Of a stretch of DNA of 46,429 nucleotides, positions 3,001-12,000 are shown one piece after another. The DNA is from an uncultured Arcobacteraceae bacterium. Lineage in GTDB: Bacteria > Campylobacterota > Campylobacteria > Campylobacterales > Arcobacteraceae. The position numbers are program-made. The stretch lies in assembly GCA_964022095.1 (NCBI GenBank), contig CAXHZO010000019.1, positions 1 to 46,429 of the forward strand, read 5' to 3'. Each line of letters opens with the position of its first letter. The first letter of the stretch is position 1.

Positions 3001-6000
3001 ACTATTAACATTCTTTAGTATTTAGTAATATACATTTATATTTATGTATTTTATAGCTTATTTTAGATAAAATGTGACCTTAAAATTAATGACAATCATA
3101 GGATAATTTGATGAGTAAAAAAGATATTAACAAAGTAGTATTAGCTTATAGTGGTGGGCTTGATACTTCAATTATATTAAAATGGCTTCAAGACGAATAC
3201 AATGCAGAAGTAATTACATTTACTGCTGACTTAGGTCAAGGTGAAGAAGTTGAACCAGCAAGACAAAAAGCATTAGACTGTGGAATTAAACCAGAAAATA
3301 TTTTTATTTTAGATATTAAAGAAGAGTTCGTAAAAGATTATGTTTTCCCAATGTTTAGAGCAAATGCAATTTATGAAGGTGAGTATTTATTAGGTACTTC
3401 AATTGCAAGACCATTAATCGCTAAAAAATTAGTTGAAATTGCAAATGAAAAAGGTGCAGAGGCTGTATCTCATGGTGCAACTGGAAAAGGTAATGACCAA
3501 GTAAGATTTGAGATTGGTGCATTAGCATTAAAACCAGATGTAAAAGTTATCGCACCTTGGAGAGAATGGGACTTAAACTCAAGAGAAAAACTATTAGGAT
3601 ACGCAAAAGAGCATGGAATTGAAATTGCACAAAAGCACGTTGATGCAGATGGTAATCCAGCAGTAAGTCCATACTCAATGGATGCAAACTTATTACATAT
3701 TTCTTATGAAGGTTTACATTTAGAAAACCCAAATAATGAAGCTGAAGATTCAATGTGGTTATGGACAAACTCTCCTGAAGAGGCTCCTGATGAAGCTGAA
3801 TATATCACTATTGGATATAAAAATGGAGATCCTATTTCTATAAATGGCGTTGAAATGTCACCAGCTACACTATTGGAGTCATTAAACAAACTAGGTAATA
3901 AACATGGTATTGGAAGAATTGATATAGTTGAAAACAGATATGTTGGTATGAAAGCTCGTGGTTGTTATGAAACTCCAGGTGGAACTATCATGTTAAAAGC
4001 TCACAGAGCGATTGAATCAATCTGTTTAGATAGAGAAGAAGCTCACTTAAAAGATGAGTTAATGCCTAAATATGCTAAATTAATTTATCAAGGATATTGG
4101 TTCTCACCAGAAAGAGAAATGCTTCAAGTAGCAATTGATAAAACTCAAGAAAATGTAGAAGGTACAGTTAGATTAAAACTATACAAAGGTAATGTAATGG
4201 TTGCAGGTAGAGAATCTGTTAATTCATTATATTCAGAAGAACACTCTACTTTTGAAGAAGATGAAGTATATAACCAAAAAGATGCAGAAGGATTTATTAG
4301 ACTTAATGCATTAAGATTTATCATCGCAGGTAAAAAGAAAAACAAATAAAACTTCTATAAAGGGTGAAATTTATTTCACCCTTTTATTATTTTGTTGCTA
4401 AATTGTAATCTTTAAGTATTATTATTATTTCACTTTAACTGTGGAATTAATAATGCAATATCTAAAACATTTAGAACAAATTATAAATATAAACTCATAT
4501 ACTAAGAATAAACAAGGTGTAGATAAAGTTGGAAAGCTCATGTCTACATGGCTTGAACAATTAGATTTTATTACTACTGTTTATAAAAGAAAAGATATCG
4601 GTAATCATATTTTATATAAATCCCAAAAAACTATAGGTACAAAAATACTACTTTTAGGACACAACGACACAGTATTTCCACCTAACTCTTTTGAAGGTTT
4701 TTCTAAAGATGCTAGATGGGTTTATGGACCTGGAGTTTGTGATATGAAAGGTGGTAATATTGTTGCACTTCAATCTCTCAGAAATATTTTTGAGCAAAAT
4801 GGGAAAATCGAAAATATAGACTTTTTGCTTGTTAGTGATGAAGAAACAGGTAGTGATGATTCGAAATTTCTTACCAAAGAGTTAGCAAAAAATTATGATA
4901 TATGTTTTGTTTTTGAAGCTGCTGGTGCAAACTTAGAAATTGTAACTGCAAGAAAAGGCGTTGGAACATTTAAAATTAATATATCAGGAGTTGCAGCTCA
5001 TGCAGGAAATAATTATGACAAAGGTAGTGATGCAAACTTAGAAGCTAGCTATAAAATACAAGAGCTTGTAAAGCTTACAAACTTAAAACTAGGAACCACT
5101 ATTAATGTAGGAAAAATCAATGGTGGAGTTGGAGCTAATACTATCTCTCCAAATTGTGAACTTCTATTAGAAGTTAGATATACAACAATAGATGAGAAAC
5201 GAAGAGTTTTAAAATCAATAGAAAAAATAACAAATACATCATATGTAAAAAATACTACTTCTAAATTAACTGGTGATATTCAAAGAGATGTAATGGAAGA
5301 GAGTTACAAACAACTACAATTAATTAAACAAATTGAAAAAATCAGTCAAACAAAAATATTTGCAGAAAAAAGAGGTGGAGTTAGTGATGCAAATATTGTA
5401 TCAAATTGTGAAGTTACTACCTTAGATGGATTTGGCCCTTTTGGTGATGGTGATCACACACTAAAAGAAAGAGCTTTAATTACAAGTTTTGAACAAAGAA
5501 TACAACTCATGACAAAAATTTTAAATCATTATCAAATATCAACTCAACAAAAGGAATATAATTAATGGCAAAAAGAAAAATTGGTATGTGGCTGTATCAA
5601 AATGGTGGTGGAGAAAGAATTCAAAATAAAATGATAAAGCAACTTAAAGAAAGAGATATAGAAATAATTCCCAATCTCAATCTAAGAGATGCCATAGCAA
5701 AAAATGATCACATAATTTATGACATTGATAATGCAAATATAAAACTGGATAAACTTGATTTATTTTTTTCTTATAATGCAGGGGAACAAACACCTTATCA
5801 AACTTTTTTATACAAAGCTTTAAATAGAATCGTGCCAATGATAAACTCATATAATGCATTTGAACTAACAGAAGATAAATTTCAAACTTCATTTTTTTTA
5901 AGACAACATGGTATTAAAACAGCTGACTATAAATTATGTCATAGAGATGATGTACATAGACTTAGCGATGTTATGAAAAAATGGAAGAAAATGGTTTATA

Positions 6001-9000: not shown

Positions 9001-12000
9001 ACAAAACATTTTGTAATAAATCTAATTTAATTACAAAGACTCACTCTTTAGATTTTAATGATATTAATCTAAATTCAAATACAAACTATTACTACAATAT
9101 AAGAGTAGTAAATAAAAAAACTAAGATTAAGTCACCTTTTTATCCACAAATAAAAGTAAGAACAATTACAGAATATGATGAGTTTAGTAGAACTTATTAT
9201 GGAACATCTAAAGGCACAGGTTATGTGTGTGAAAATATACATGATAATGAAAAGCACTTTGGTGTTAATTCTTTATTTGTAGGGGTGGATGATAGAAAAG
9301 GTATTTCTTACGCAATTGTAACAATAAATGTAAAAACACTTCCTCTTAATGCTTTAATAAAATCTGCTTCATTTAACTTATATCCAATAAATAGAGTTTC
9401 AACAACAATTGAAAAATATGGAGAATGGAATGTTGGCATTGTCAATCAGTTTAATATGGGTGACATAACAAATTTTGATGATGTAGAAAATATGGATGTA
9501 AAGTATATTGGAGTACCTACCAAATCTCATCAATTAACACAAGGTATTTGGAGAACATGGAATTTATCAGGTATTGAATGTGAATACTTAAAAGATGCTA
9601 TAAAAGACAATAAAATAGTATTAAGAATTGAAGGTCCAAAAGAGTTAAAAATTGCTAGAAATAGGCAAATGATGCAATGGGATATAGGTTATGGTAGATT
9701 TGGCTTTGGACTACCCTATAGACCAAGAGTTGAATTAACATATACAATAGAACCAACTATTACAACTTTATATCCTAAAGAAATTTTAACAGTAAAAAAA
9801 TATGAAGTATATGAAAATGAAGTAACAGCAGGATTTGACGAAGATGGTAGCAAAATATATTCAACATTTAAATTTGATTTATCAGCCCTACCTTTATACA
9901 ATGATACAATGATAACTAAAGCGTATTTTGAGCTTAACTCTACAAACATCTATATAAAAGATGATATTAGATTTCATCTTGAGTTTGTAGATGAAGATAT
10001 TAGAAATAACTATAGAAGTATTGAAAGAAGAGAAATTATTCAAAATATAGGATATGATGTAAGTGCAACCGAACTTAAAAACAATCAAACTCAATACTTT
10101 GTATTTGATGCTTATTCAGAGATTACTTTAAATGATAAATTAAAACAAAAAGCTACTATTGGTTTTGTGCTAAATCCTACAAGTTCTTTAAAAACTACAA
10201 AAGATAAAAAAGTATCTTGGGAAGTTAATAGTGAAGAATTATCTCCTCGATTGATTATTGAGTATATTAAAAAAAGAAGATTTCCAATTGAAACTGTGAC
10301 AAATGCAAAATTATCTTTAGAAAATGGAAAAATAAAAATTACATGGACAAATCCTAAAAATTCATCATTAAAAGGTGTTAAAGTTATAAAAAACCCTTTT
10401 AGAGCTCCTTTATCCAATCAAGATGGACAAAAGATATACGCAGGAAAAGATGAATATACATTCGATGATTTTGGTGCAAATGATATAGATAAATTCTATG
10501 CAATATTTACATATGATGATGTTCCAAATTATTCTATGCCAATTATTTTAGAATATAAAGCAAAATAAGAGTTGCTTTGTTATAATTATTTAAAATCAAA
10601 CTAAGGAAAGATAATGATTTTAAAATTTAAAGAATTTTACCCACAAATTCACTCTACTGCTTGGATTGCACCAAGTGCAGATGTTGTGGGAAATGTTACT
10701 ATTGGAGAAGACTCTTCAGTTTGGTACGGTTGTGTTATTAGAAGTGATGTTAATAAAGTAATTATTGGTAAAAATACAAATGTTCAAGATTTATCATGTA
10801 TTCATACAGATGTTGATTCTCAAACTATTTTAGGTGATAACGTAACAATTGGTCATAAAGTTATGCTTCATGGTTGTATCGTTGAAGACAATTGTCTAAT
10901 AGGTATGAGTGCAACTGTACTAGATAATGCTGTAATTGGAGAAGGAAGTATCGTTGGAGCAAATTCTTTAGTAACTGCTGGGAAAAAGTTTCCACCAAAA
11001 AGTTTAATTATGGGAAGTCCAGCTAAAGTAGTAAAAGAGTTAACAGATGAAGATAGAGATAATCTAATCAAACATGCAGGTCACTATGTAGATTATAAAA
11101 ACGAATATAGCTAATAAATAATAGGTTTAAAACCTATTATTTACACTTGTCATATGCAACTTGCAATTTAGAGTATAAATCATCAAAACTTACATCATCC
11201 ATTTTTTCTAGAATATCAACCATAACTACGTTATCTTCATCTCCATTCCAAACTTTAATATAAGTTCCTTCTTTATAGCCATTATCTTGTCTAAATTGAT
11301 TTAAACAGTTTTTACCAATATATAGTTTTTGTAACCACATAAAAGATAATCCAGAGATTTTACAACATCTAAAGAATTGATCAATAAATCTCTCAACTCC
11401 ACTAAATGATGGCATATTTCCTGTATCAATAGCTAAAGCTATATAAGATAATTTTTCAGACTCAGTTACCATTAATTTTACATCTACTTCAGAAGATGCT
11501 TCATAAATACAATGTGTATTTACTAAAGATACTGCTTTTGGTACATTTGTTTCTTGTAAAATATAAGACATTAGGAAATGCCAAATATCAACTAGTTCTA
11601 CATGTATATTATTCATATCAGGATCTGAGTTAATATTTTTCCAGTGTTTCCAAGGAGTTGATTCAATTAACTCTGCTACTTCCATATGTATACATCTAAG
11701 CCAGTTTATCTCTTTTCCAAACTTATTAACACCTAATTCCCAGTTCTTACCATTTGTAGAATCATTTAATTTCTTTTGTAATAAAAACATCTCTTCAAGT
11801 TTATGTGGAAAAGATGAAGCTTCATCTAAAAGTGTTGCTAAAGGTAAGCACTCTTCAATAACATTATCTAAAGTTGTACTGCTTGGTAATTCTTTTTCAC
11901 CTTTTAATAAGTGCAAAACTAAAGATACAATATATGGAACTTGATTTTTATCTTCCCAATTTAAAACTTCGTCAGATGTAACTCCACTGTATTGCATAAA

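What a model noticed while it worked through the whole genome (the two positions that open the first line are those of the whole stretch)
4453..10568. Conserved four-gene peptide-tagging module: M20 peptidase, two ATP-grasp ligases (one HhH-fused) and a cytoplasmic M14 c [...]
g02222-g02225 form a fixed module of an M20 peptidase, a canonical RimK-like ligase, a second highly conserved ATP-grasp protein with E-C-A in place of the E-x-N motif and a C-terminal helix-hairpin-helix, and an 859-aa signal-less M14 carboxypeptidase with long beta-domains. It looks like an undescribed write-and-erase amino-acid tagging or peptide system of environmental Campylobacterales.
Evidence so far: RimK next to Peptidase_M14 in at least 303 and next to M20 in at least 341 of 1,515 order genomes. 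In 46 metagenome loci the M14 and M20 genes each recur in 32 in varied outer contexts. Motif conservation in 37, 33 and 28 sequences, Zn and catalytic motifs intact in M14; M14 identity by profile and fold. All four are below NCBIfam cut-offs. Searches 131, 141 empty.
(Added by a program. Inside this text positions count along the whole contig: contig position 1 is position 1 of the stretch shown here. "Call 12" and the like, gene names such as g00115 and contig names such as C1 are that model's own, and its searches are not shown. The text may have been shortened before it was handed on; [...] marks where a part breaks off. The agent that wrote the report below was given it as the finding of a first reader that could run no searches.)

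Follow-up and report, generated by a model that had tools for sequence, protein, structure and literature searches.

The report
Marine bacterial two-ligase, two-peptidase module
Four genes that stay together in marine bacteria of two phyla encode two bond-forming and two bond-cutting enzymes that probably build and dismantle a peptide ending in glutamate or aspartate; the product is unknown and no description of the set was found.

Summary
The four genes are real, intact and coupled: CPG2-like M20, RimK/ArgX-like ligase (RK1), atypical E-C-A ATP-grasp with HhH (AG2), signal-less M14A carboxypeptidase. All four occur in 36 of 401 Campylobacterota genomes; three of these keep AG2 at another locus. 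The module is not Campylobacterales-specific: 66 of 80 fetched GTDB loci are marine Gammaproteobacteria, mostly with M20 divergent. New here: the M14 has Arg at CPA position 255 (103/103), predicting removal of C-terminal Glu/Asp. RK1 is not a canonical RimK: Tyr replaces RimK R64, an acidic residue sits in its amino-acid pocket, the genome has a separate rimB-rimK operon, and S6 lacks an EE end in 6/6 genomes. No LysW carrier was seen. Trees and partial losses hint at two pairs, RK1+M20 and AG2+M14. Best reading (0.45): a cytoplasmic make-and-break cycle for a non-ribosomal acid-ended peptide or polyamide. A protein tag (0.28) and a non-catalytic AG2 (0.12) remain open. No substrate is shown. 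New variant of the known ATP-grasp-plus-peptidase kind; interest 0.55.

The parts
4359..4384 (+). Terminator-like hairpin 10 nt after the argG stop; probably separates argG from the module
   Evidence: the only such site in 4200-11300, but shuffles give a mean of 1.7, so only its position argues for it
4453..5565 (+). M20 metallo-hydrolase of the PRK07338 / carboxypeptidase G2 kind; di-zinc ligands H70, D97, E130, E131, E155, H335; R278 = CPG2 R324, R242 = R288
   Evidence: best PDB match 1cg2, E 7e-25; 105/105
5565..6494 (+). RK1: RimK/LysX/ArgX-clade ATP-grasp ligase with full catalytic set (K105, K146, E183, R194, R208, N218, D253, E267, N269); Y70 at RimK R64; D/E196, Y206, I/V219 in the incoming-amino-acid pocket
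   Evidence: (106/106)
6491..7480 (+). AG2 ATP-grasp domain: keeps K94, K135, R184, R198, N208, D243, E257; Ala at the metal-binding Asn (E-C-A, nt 7259-7267); net basic; the most conserved part of the module
   Evidence: 113/113; ArgX Z 21.8, rmsd 2.7, 263 aligned
7598..7975 (+). AG2 tail: two ComEA-type helix-hairpin-helix (HHH_3) units; most relatives carry a different HHH_5-type tail, some none
7989..8873 (+). M14A (CPA/CPT-fold) zinc carboxypeptidase domain: H65, E68, H188, R123, N139, R140, E261; R247 (nt 8727-8729) at CPA position 255; no Tyr248 equivalent
   Evidence: CPA4 Z 35.8, rmsd 2.2, 290 aligned; 103/103
8874..10568 (+). Four beta domains after the peptidase: Fn3 (about aa 296-395), two related DNRLRE-like domains (396-588, 589-765), final beta-sandwich (766-859)
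   Evidence: NF033679 32.9 bits, cut-off 34; pTM 0.87; fn3 in 45/57; domains 2 and 3: hhalign 95%, E 3.6e-8; domains 1 and 4 only 16%

Best explanation
A cytoplasmic make-and-break cycle for a non-ribosomal peptide or polyamide that ends in Glu or Asp, probably a free metabolite or polymer (nitrogen/carbon store or solute). RK1 forms the first amide, joining a polar or basic amino acid to a small neutral acceptor, possibly through a side-chain carboxyl as LysX/ArgX do; the M20 cuts that bond. AG2, basic and HhH-tipped, extends the product with acidic residues; the M14 removes them one at a time from the C-terminus, its beta domains holding the chain. Shown: genes, folds, catalytic residues, co-retention. 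Inferred with good support: acidic specificity of the M14. Inferred weakly: the pairing, the order of steps, the free-polymer nature, the physiological role.
For: All four genes in 36 of 401 Campylobacterota genomes, against 37 with AG2, 37 with RK1 and 39 with the M20 orthologue (M14). Co-retention survives unlinking: AG2 lies elsewhere in G010, G169, G262, M14 in G341, M20 in G329; G041 holds only fragments. M14 orthologue in 1 of 45 genomes lacking AG2. R247 aligns without gaps to CPA Ile255 and is invariant; Arg255 gives acidic specificity (PMC9925722, PMC4230590, passages). M20 is closest to CPG2. Its 32-37% paralogues sit beside aspartoacylase and a peptide ABC transporter (L164, L165; C26 gamma-glutamyl hydrolase in L164) or another ATP-grasp and a glutamate-aminomutase-like gene (L163); an orphan orthologue precedes a TAXI transporter (L161): small-molecule settings. 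Pairing: partial correlations of distances over 55 loci AG2-M14 0.67, RK1-M20 0.50, RK1-AG2 -0.03, RK1-M14 0.03; a 16-row split seen in the AG2 tree recurs in the M14 tree, not in M20 or RK1 trees; G136 has only M20+RK1, G287 only AG2+M14. Precedent for two ATP-grasps in sequence: MyfA/MyfB (PMC8141765, passages). DNRLRE domains occur on polymer hydrolases (PMC9971899, PMC12278694, passages).
Against: No substrate, product or expression data. No precursor, acyltransferase or transporter gene travels with the module. AG2 lacks the Asn that contacts substrate in RimK (N262, PMC10092738 section 3.3) and may not be catalytic. Both ligases appear to lack RimK's chain-binding R64 (RK1 by hhalign at moderate confidence; AG2 by eye only), so plain poly-alpha-glutamate fits poorly. 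HhH fusions suggest DNA, which a storage polymer does not explain. Pairing is contradicted by G010, G169, G262 (M14 stays with RK1+M20) and by M14 alone in G352; kin and gene order inflate the correlations; G136 and G287 are fragmented assemblies. Position 255 rests on sequence alignment; the neighbouring loop 236-241 has pLDDT under 50 and Tyr248 is missing. Other orphan M20 (G334) has no informative neighbours.
Confidence: 0.45

Rival explanations
1. Reversible protein tag: RK1 starts and AG2 extends an acidic tail or branch on an unknown cytoplasmic, perhaps DNA-bound, protein; M14 shortens it and M20 removes the first residue, working like eukaryotic TTLL ligases and CCP deglutamylases.
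For: Nearest characterised ligases act on proteins (RimK on S6, LysX/ArgX on LysW). Arg255 as in CCPs (PMC4230590). Two different HhH tails: 86 HHH_5-type, 13 ComEA-type plus 5 short relatives, of 113. No metabolic genes in the module. Very high AG2 conservation (67-88% within the phylum) fits a conserved macromolecular partner.
Against: No target gene is linked; S6 ends in EE in 0 of 6 genomes; no LysW-like ORF in 120 loci or the own genome; module proteins have no conserved acidic end; 9 of 113 AG2 tails fall outside both HhH groups (some may be cut by contig ends); M20 relatives sit in small-molecule settings.
Confidence: 0.28
2. AG2 is a non-catalytic, nucleotide-binding or DNA-sensing partner (E-C-A pseudo-ligase) that controls RK1 or the M14; RK1 is the only writer.
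For: Loss of the E-x-N Asn in 113/113; opposite net charges, AG2 median +10 against RK1 -5 to -11; RK1 and AG2 share 36 of 38 genomes holding either intact.
Against: AG2 keeps both lysines, both substrate arginines, N208, D243 and E257; RK1-AG2 partial correlation is about zero; each occurs without the other in one genome.
Confidence: 0.12
3. The ligases add, and the peptidases trim, a glutamate tail on a cofactor such as folate or another pterin, as MptN, CofF or MyfA/MyfB do.
For: MptN is the best NCBIfam model for RK1 (139 bits, cut-off 350) and second best for AG2; CPG2 cleaves glutamate from folates (recalled); MyfA/MyfB precedent.
Against: No cofactor-pathway gene is linked in 120 loci; scores are far below cut-off; HhH and four beta domains are unexplained.
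Confidence: 0.1
4. An ordinary RimK system for ribosomal protein S6, or a LysW-type amino-acid biosynthesis route.
For: Automatic names on relatives (JGI 'ribosomal protein S6--L-glutamate ligase'); argG lies upstream in the window.
Against: A true RimK with Rimk_N domain, rimB-like and AstE-like neighbours lies at G000:C4:109124-111538; S6 lacks EE in 6/6; no carrier, kinase, reductase or aminotransferase; argG adjacency in only 9 loci, and a hairpin lies between.
Confidence: 0.03

Closest known systems
RimK/RimB(/RimA) system of Pseudomonas (PMC11957791, PMC10092738)
   Same: ATP-grasp ligase encoded with a peptidase that reverses it; RimK also makes free poly-alpha-glutamate
   Different: One ligase and a retropepsin there; here two divergent ligases, an M14A and an M20. 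RK1 has Tyr at R64, S6 lacks EE, and the genome holds rimB-rimK separately
LysX/ArgX + LysW + LysK amino-group-carrier pathways (PMC12998189, PMC10433800)
   Same: Closest folds to AG2; RK1 shares two glutamate-favouring signature residues (Y206, I/V219); an M20 releases the product
   Different: No LysW, LysZ, LysY or LysJ; signature positions D196 and T276-P277 (RK1) and M186, F196 (AG2) match neither type
MyfA/MyfB methylofuran polyglutamate synthesis (PMC8141765)
   Same: Two ATP-grasp enzymes acting in sequence on one chain
   Different: No cofactor genes here; two peptidases are part of the unit
TTLL ligases with CCP deglutamylases; carboxypeptidase O (PMC4230590, PMC9925722)
   Same: ATP-grasp writers with M14 erasers bearing Arg255
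   Different: This M14 is CPA/CPT-type with C-terminal Fn3/DNRLRE-like domains, not an M14D CCP; ligases are RimK-clade; no protein target known
Cyanophycin system, CphA with cyanophycinase and isoaspartyl dipeptidase (recalled)
   Same: Two ligation steps and two hydrolases for a cytoplasmic polyamide
   Different: No Mur-ligase or N domain, no S51 peptidase; cyanophycin synthetase model scores 44.5 bits against a cut-off of 850
Carboxypeptidase G2 / PRK07338 M20 hydrolases
   Same: Metal ligands and both arginines kept
   Different: About 30% identity, no hydrophobic leader, below both cut-offs; R324 is a general carboxylate binder (PMC6271292), so glutamate specificity is not shown

Membership tests
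RimK, S6--L-glutamate ligase (NF007764, TIGR00768) | Score above curated cut-off | tested here: not met
   RK1 51.4/331 and 125.8/143.4; AG2 19.3/331 and 74.6/143.4
RimK, S6--L-glutamate ligase (NF007764, TIGR00768) | ATP-grasp catalytic set including E-x-N | tested here: met
   RK1 106/106. AG2 fails at the Asn, 113/113
RimK, S6--L-glutamate ligase (NF007764, TIGR00768) | Chain-binding arginines R8/R64 and Rimk_N domain | tested here: not met
   Y70 aligns with R64 (moderate confidence; 106/106); no PF18030 hit while the genome's true RimK has it; R8 compared by eye only
RimK, S6--L-glutamate ligase (NF007764, TIGR00768) | S6 ending in EE (requirement recalled) | tested here: not met
   0 of 6 genomes; ends AN, EA, EA, AE, AE, EA; two end in a single E
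LysX/ArgX amino-group-carrier pathway | LysW carrier ending EDWGE plus LysZ, LysY, LysJ | tested here: not met
   0 such ORFs in 120 loci; none of 60 aa or more in the own genome (shorter ORFs not listed there); no pathway genes linked
LysX/ArgX amino-group-carrier pathway | Five-residue specificity signature | tested here: not met
   RK1 D/Y/(I,V)/T/P: 2 of 5 ArgX-like; AG2 M/F/T then no match
M14A zinc carboxypeptidase | Fold and H69, E72, H196, R127, N144, R145, E270 | tested here: met
   (103/103)
M14 acidic-specific (CPO/CCP-like specificity) | Basic residue at position 255 | tested here: met
   R247, 103/103; ungapped alignment to CPA1 and CPA4; no residue-level superposition was available
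M14 acidic-specific (CPO/CCP-like specificity) | Cleavage of C-terminal Glu/Asp | not testable with these tools
   needs an assay
M14D cytosolic carboxypeptidase (CCP) | N-terminal beta-sandwich before the peptidase domain (recalled) | tested here: not met
   the peptidase domain starts at residue 1-3
Glutamate carboxypeptidase CPG2 (PRK06133) / PRK07338 | Score above cut-off | tested here: not met
   184/349 and 210/357
Glutamate carboxypeptidase CPG2 (PRK06133) / PRK07338 | Di-zinc ligands and R324 | tested here: met
   (105/105)
Cyanophycin system | CphA with Mur-ligase domain and S51 cyanophycinase (recalled) | tested here: not met
Peptide-tagging or peptide-synthesis operons predicted by Iyer et al. 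2009 | Whether this gene set is listed there | not testable with these tools
   paper not held; content recalled only

The most novel reading that the evidence does not exclude
A bacterial two-writer, two-eraser glutamate code built independently of TTLL/CCP: RK1 initiates and the E-C-A ligase AG2, steered to DNA by its HhH tail, elongates an acidic chain on nucleoid-bound proteins, while an Arg255 M14 and a CPG2-like M20 erase it stepwise; AG2 would also be an active ATP-grasp ligase without the second metal Asn.
Probability: 0.15. Interest if true: 0.85.

Novelty: new variant of a known kind. Interest (0 to 1): 0.55.

Why it matters
About 500 GTDB matches point to an unrecognised peptide pathway in vent, sediment and animal-associated marine bacteria, some of them culturable, now partly mislabelled as S6 ligase or ComEA. 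The Arg255 result and the two-pair model give direct assays. A new storage polyamide or solute would bear on marine nitrogen turnover and on enzymatic polyamide synthesis; a protein tag would be a new bacterial modification.

Tried and rejected
Literature: five searches found no description of the module (one search gave the RimK/RimB papers); the library lacks most subscription journals, Iyer 2009 was not held, and no supplements were read, so a listing in a supplement is not excluded. Expression: no RNA holder listed. Earlier findings were not open. Viral contigs: 49 pattern matches, none a relative. Plasmids: one AG2 match, a 2.1-Mb Photobacterium record without annotation. ESM Atlas gave only generic RimK and M14 clusters. 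Gammaproteobacteria class sample: 1 of 400 scored, the centre genome itself, so the module is rare in that class. Promoter scan at chance level, 40 sites against 46.9. No compositional sign of recent transfer, GC 0.280 against 0.279. argG and the downstream gamma-carbonic-anhydrase-like gene rejected as members (9 and 11 loci). The 1,200-aa gene beside the unlinked AG2 begins like a DNA polymerase III alpha subunit (recognised from recall). Self-tagging rejected. The beta domains of the M14 were not folded alone, so the fold searches did not test them. The direction of transfer between phyla was not tested; the RK1 tree is the quick tree. The M14 was not searched in most of the 401 genomes, among them the 276 of families f2 and f3.
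Full report
Observation. The four ORFs lie at 4453-5565, 5565-6494, 6491-7984 and 7989-10568 on the + strand, with overlapping or near-touching ends. Pfam calls them M20, RimK, RimK plus HHH_3, and M14; none reaches an NCBIfam cut-off. Named close relatives of gene 3 (81-91% identity) come from Arcobacteraceae. A hairpin at 4359-4384 follows argG, though such sites are at chance frequency. Module GC equals genome GC. I call the genes M20, RK1, AG2 and M14.

Range and coupling. In 401 Campylobacterota genomes, full-length orthologues were found for AG2 in 37, RK1 in 37 and M20 in 39. 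All four are present in 36 (M14). None of the three was found in the 276 genomes of families f2 and f3 (weak hits to 1,100-aa proteins set aside). Coupling does not depend on linkage: AG2 sits elsewhere in G010, G169 and G262, M14 in G341, M20 in G329. Exceptions: G136 has M20+RK1 only, G287 AG2+M14 only, G075 and G334 M20 only, G041 fragments only, and G352 has argG followed directly by an intact M14, 1 of 45 AG2-less genomes tested. A GTDB scan with a query led by a non-Campylobacterota sequence gave 496 matches; of the best 80 fetched, 66 are marine Gammaproteobacteria (Pseudoalteromonas, Photobacterium, Colwellia, Endozoicomonas, Paraglaciecola and others), 13 Campylobacterota and 1 Bacteroidota MAG; a few repeat handle genomes. 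All four genes are adjacent in 75 of the 80, with M20 divergent in 73. An even sample of the class gave 1 of 400, the centre itself. AG2 is an isolated family: above 60% identity inside, one member at 43%, then about 30% to general RimK proteins.

M14. The model (pTM 0.87) matches CPA4, CPB and CPT at Z about 35. Zinc and catalytic residues are invariant in 103 sequences. The new point is R247: it aligns without gaps to Ile255 of CPA1 and CPA4 and is invariant. Arg255 gives acidic C-terminal specificity in CPO and the CCPs (PMC9925722 and PMC4230590, passages). Caveats: Tyr248 has no equivalent, the loop before R247 is poorly modelled, and no residue-level superposition was available. After the peptidase come an Fn3 domain, two related DNRLRE-like domains and a last beta-sandwich. 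DNRLRE domains occur on alginate and PHB hydrolases (PMC9971899, PMC12278694, passages).

M20. Closest solved structure is carboxypeptidase G2, with metal ligands and R324 kept in 105/105. R324 is a general carboxylate binder (PMC6271292, passages), so glutamate specificity is not shown. Relatives at 32-37% lie beside aspartoacylase and peptide transporters, once with a gamma-glutamyl hydrolase, or beside another ATP-grasp and a glutamate-aminomutase-like gene; one orphan orthologue precedes a TAXI transporter, the other has no informative neighbours. Three plasmid relatives all follow transporter or membrane-protein genes. These are small-molecule settings.

RK1. It has the complete ATP-grasp catalytic set (106/106), yet is not a canonical RimK. 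In RimK, S7, R8, S14, R64 and S68 hold the glutamate chain (PMC10092738, section 3.3); RK1 has invariant Tyr at R64. Of the five LysX/ArgX signature positions (PMC12998189, PMC10433800, passages), mapped by spacing, it has the two glutamate-favouring residues Y206 and I/V219, but Asp (105/106; Glu in the window) at the first, which suggests a polar or basic incoming amino acid (inference). The genome carries a separate rimB-like, rimK, AstE-like operon. S6 ends in EE in 0 of 6 carrier genomes. No LysW-like ORF was found.

AG2. Its model is closest to ArgX, LysX and RimK. It keeps every catalytic residue except the Asn (E-C-A, 113/113), so it may be an altered ligase or a pseudo-ligase. Its domain is net basic (median +10) whereas RK1 is acidic. 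The tail varies: 86 of 113 share an HHH_5-type tail, 13 a ComEA-type tail with 5 short relatives, and 9 fall outside. Two kinds of HhH on one enzyme suggest selection for binding DNA or another polyanion (inference).

Two pairs. Over 55 dereplicated loci of 95 with four full-length genes, partial correlations of distances were AG2-M14 0.67, RK1-M20 0.50, M20-AG2 0.32, M20-M14 0.17, RK1-AG2 -0.03, RK1-M14 0.03. A 16-row split taken from the AG2 tree recurs only in the M14 tree. G136 and G287 each keep one pair. Against this: three genomes leave M14 with RK1 and M20, G352 keeps M14 alone, and kinship and gene order inflate such signals. This is a lead, not a result.

Mechanism. Most likely (0.45) the unit builds and dismantles a non-ribosomal peptide or polyamide ending in Glu or Asp: RK1 makes the first amide and M20 cuts it; AG2 extends with acidic residues and M14 trims them. 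MyfA/MyfB are a precedent for sequential ATP-grasps (PMC8141765, passages), and RimK with RimB makes and degrades free polyglutamate (PMC11957791, abstract and passages). Rivals: protein tag 0.28, non-catalytic AG2 0.12, cofactor tail 0.10, S6 or LysW route 0.03. That the genes form one functional unit I put at about 0.95, and acidic specificity of the M14 at about 0.8.

Novelty. It works like known ligase-plus-peptidase systems but fails the membership tests for RimK, LysX/ArgX, CCP and cyanophycin. Five searches found no description; Iyer et al. 2009, which I recall predicting ATP-grasp and peptidase pairings in general, could not be read, and no supplements were seen. Verdict: new variant of a known kind, interest 0.55.

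Noticed in passing
G000:C4:109124-111538 (L157:1124-3538): Separate rimB-like, canonical rimK and AstE/AspA operon in a genome whose S6 has no acidic tail, so that RimK probably has another product. Such operons could inflate 'RimK next to M14' counts, though this AstE gene did not hit PF00246.
   Followed up: partly
L033:9988-12003 (-), G275: M20 and RK1 read through as one 671-aa frame with the RK1 ribosome-binding site still present; stop loss or a homopolymer error, seen in one genome.
   Followed up: partly
L163:6993-13092, G165: GntR, an unrelated ATP-grasp (466 aa), a glutamate-2,3-aminomutase-like KamA and an M20 paralogue beside a TAXI receptor: perhaps a beta-glutamate peptide pathway.
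   Followed up: no
L164:581-8892 (G165) and L165:5859-14464 (G214): M20 paralogue divergent from aspartoacylase, with a peptide ABC transporter and, in L164, a C26 hydrolase: looks like uptake and breakdown of an N-acyl-Asp-Glu-type peptide.
   Followed up: no
AG2 relatives, e.g. L076:10527-11906: An EEWPSE-like motif after the ATP-grasp domain in 86 of 113 sequences, absent from the window's ComEA-tailed type; faintly like the LysW end but internal.
   Followed up: partly
L147:1663-7734: Arcobacteraceae MAG with argG context and Arcobacter-like M20 and RK1 but AG2 and M14 of the other type: a mosaic module.
   Followed up: partly
G375:C44:54600, G273:C1:1419514, G352:C34:74942: A further RimK-like gene (about 350 aa, 32-33% to RK1) lies 22-25 kb from the module site in three genomes of one genus.
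   Followed up: no
L096:12000-15000 region; L106: M14 gene split into pieces in two gammaproteobacterial loci; decay or assembly error.
   Followed up: no
window 1-2935: Contig start with low GC, an HTH regulator (2168-2515) and ORFs without Pfam match: possibly the edge of an integrated element.
   Followed up: no
window 11137-12060 (-): Dimeric dUTPase with an extra N-terminal segment of about 85 aa.
   Followed up: no
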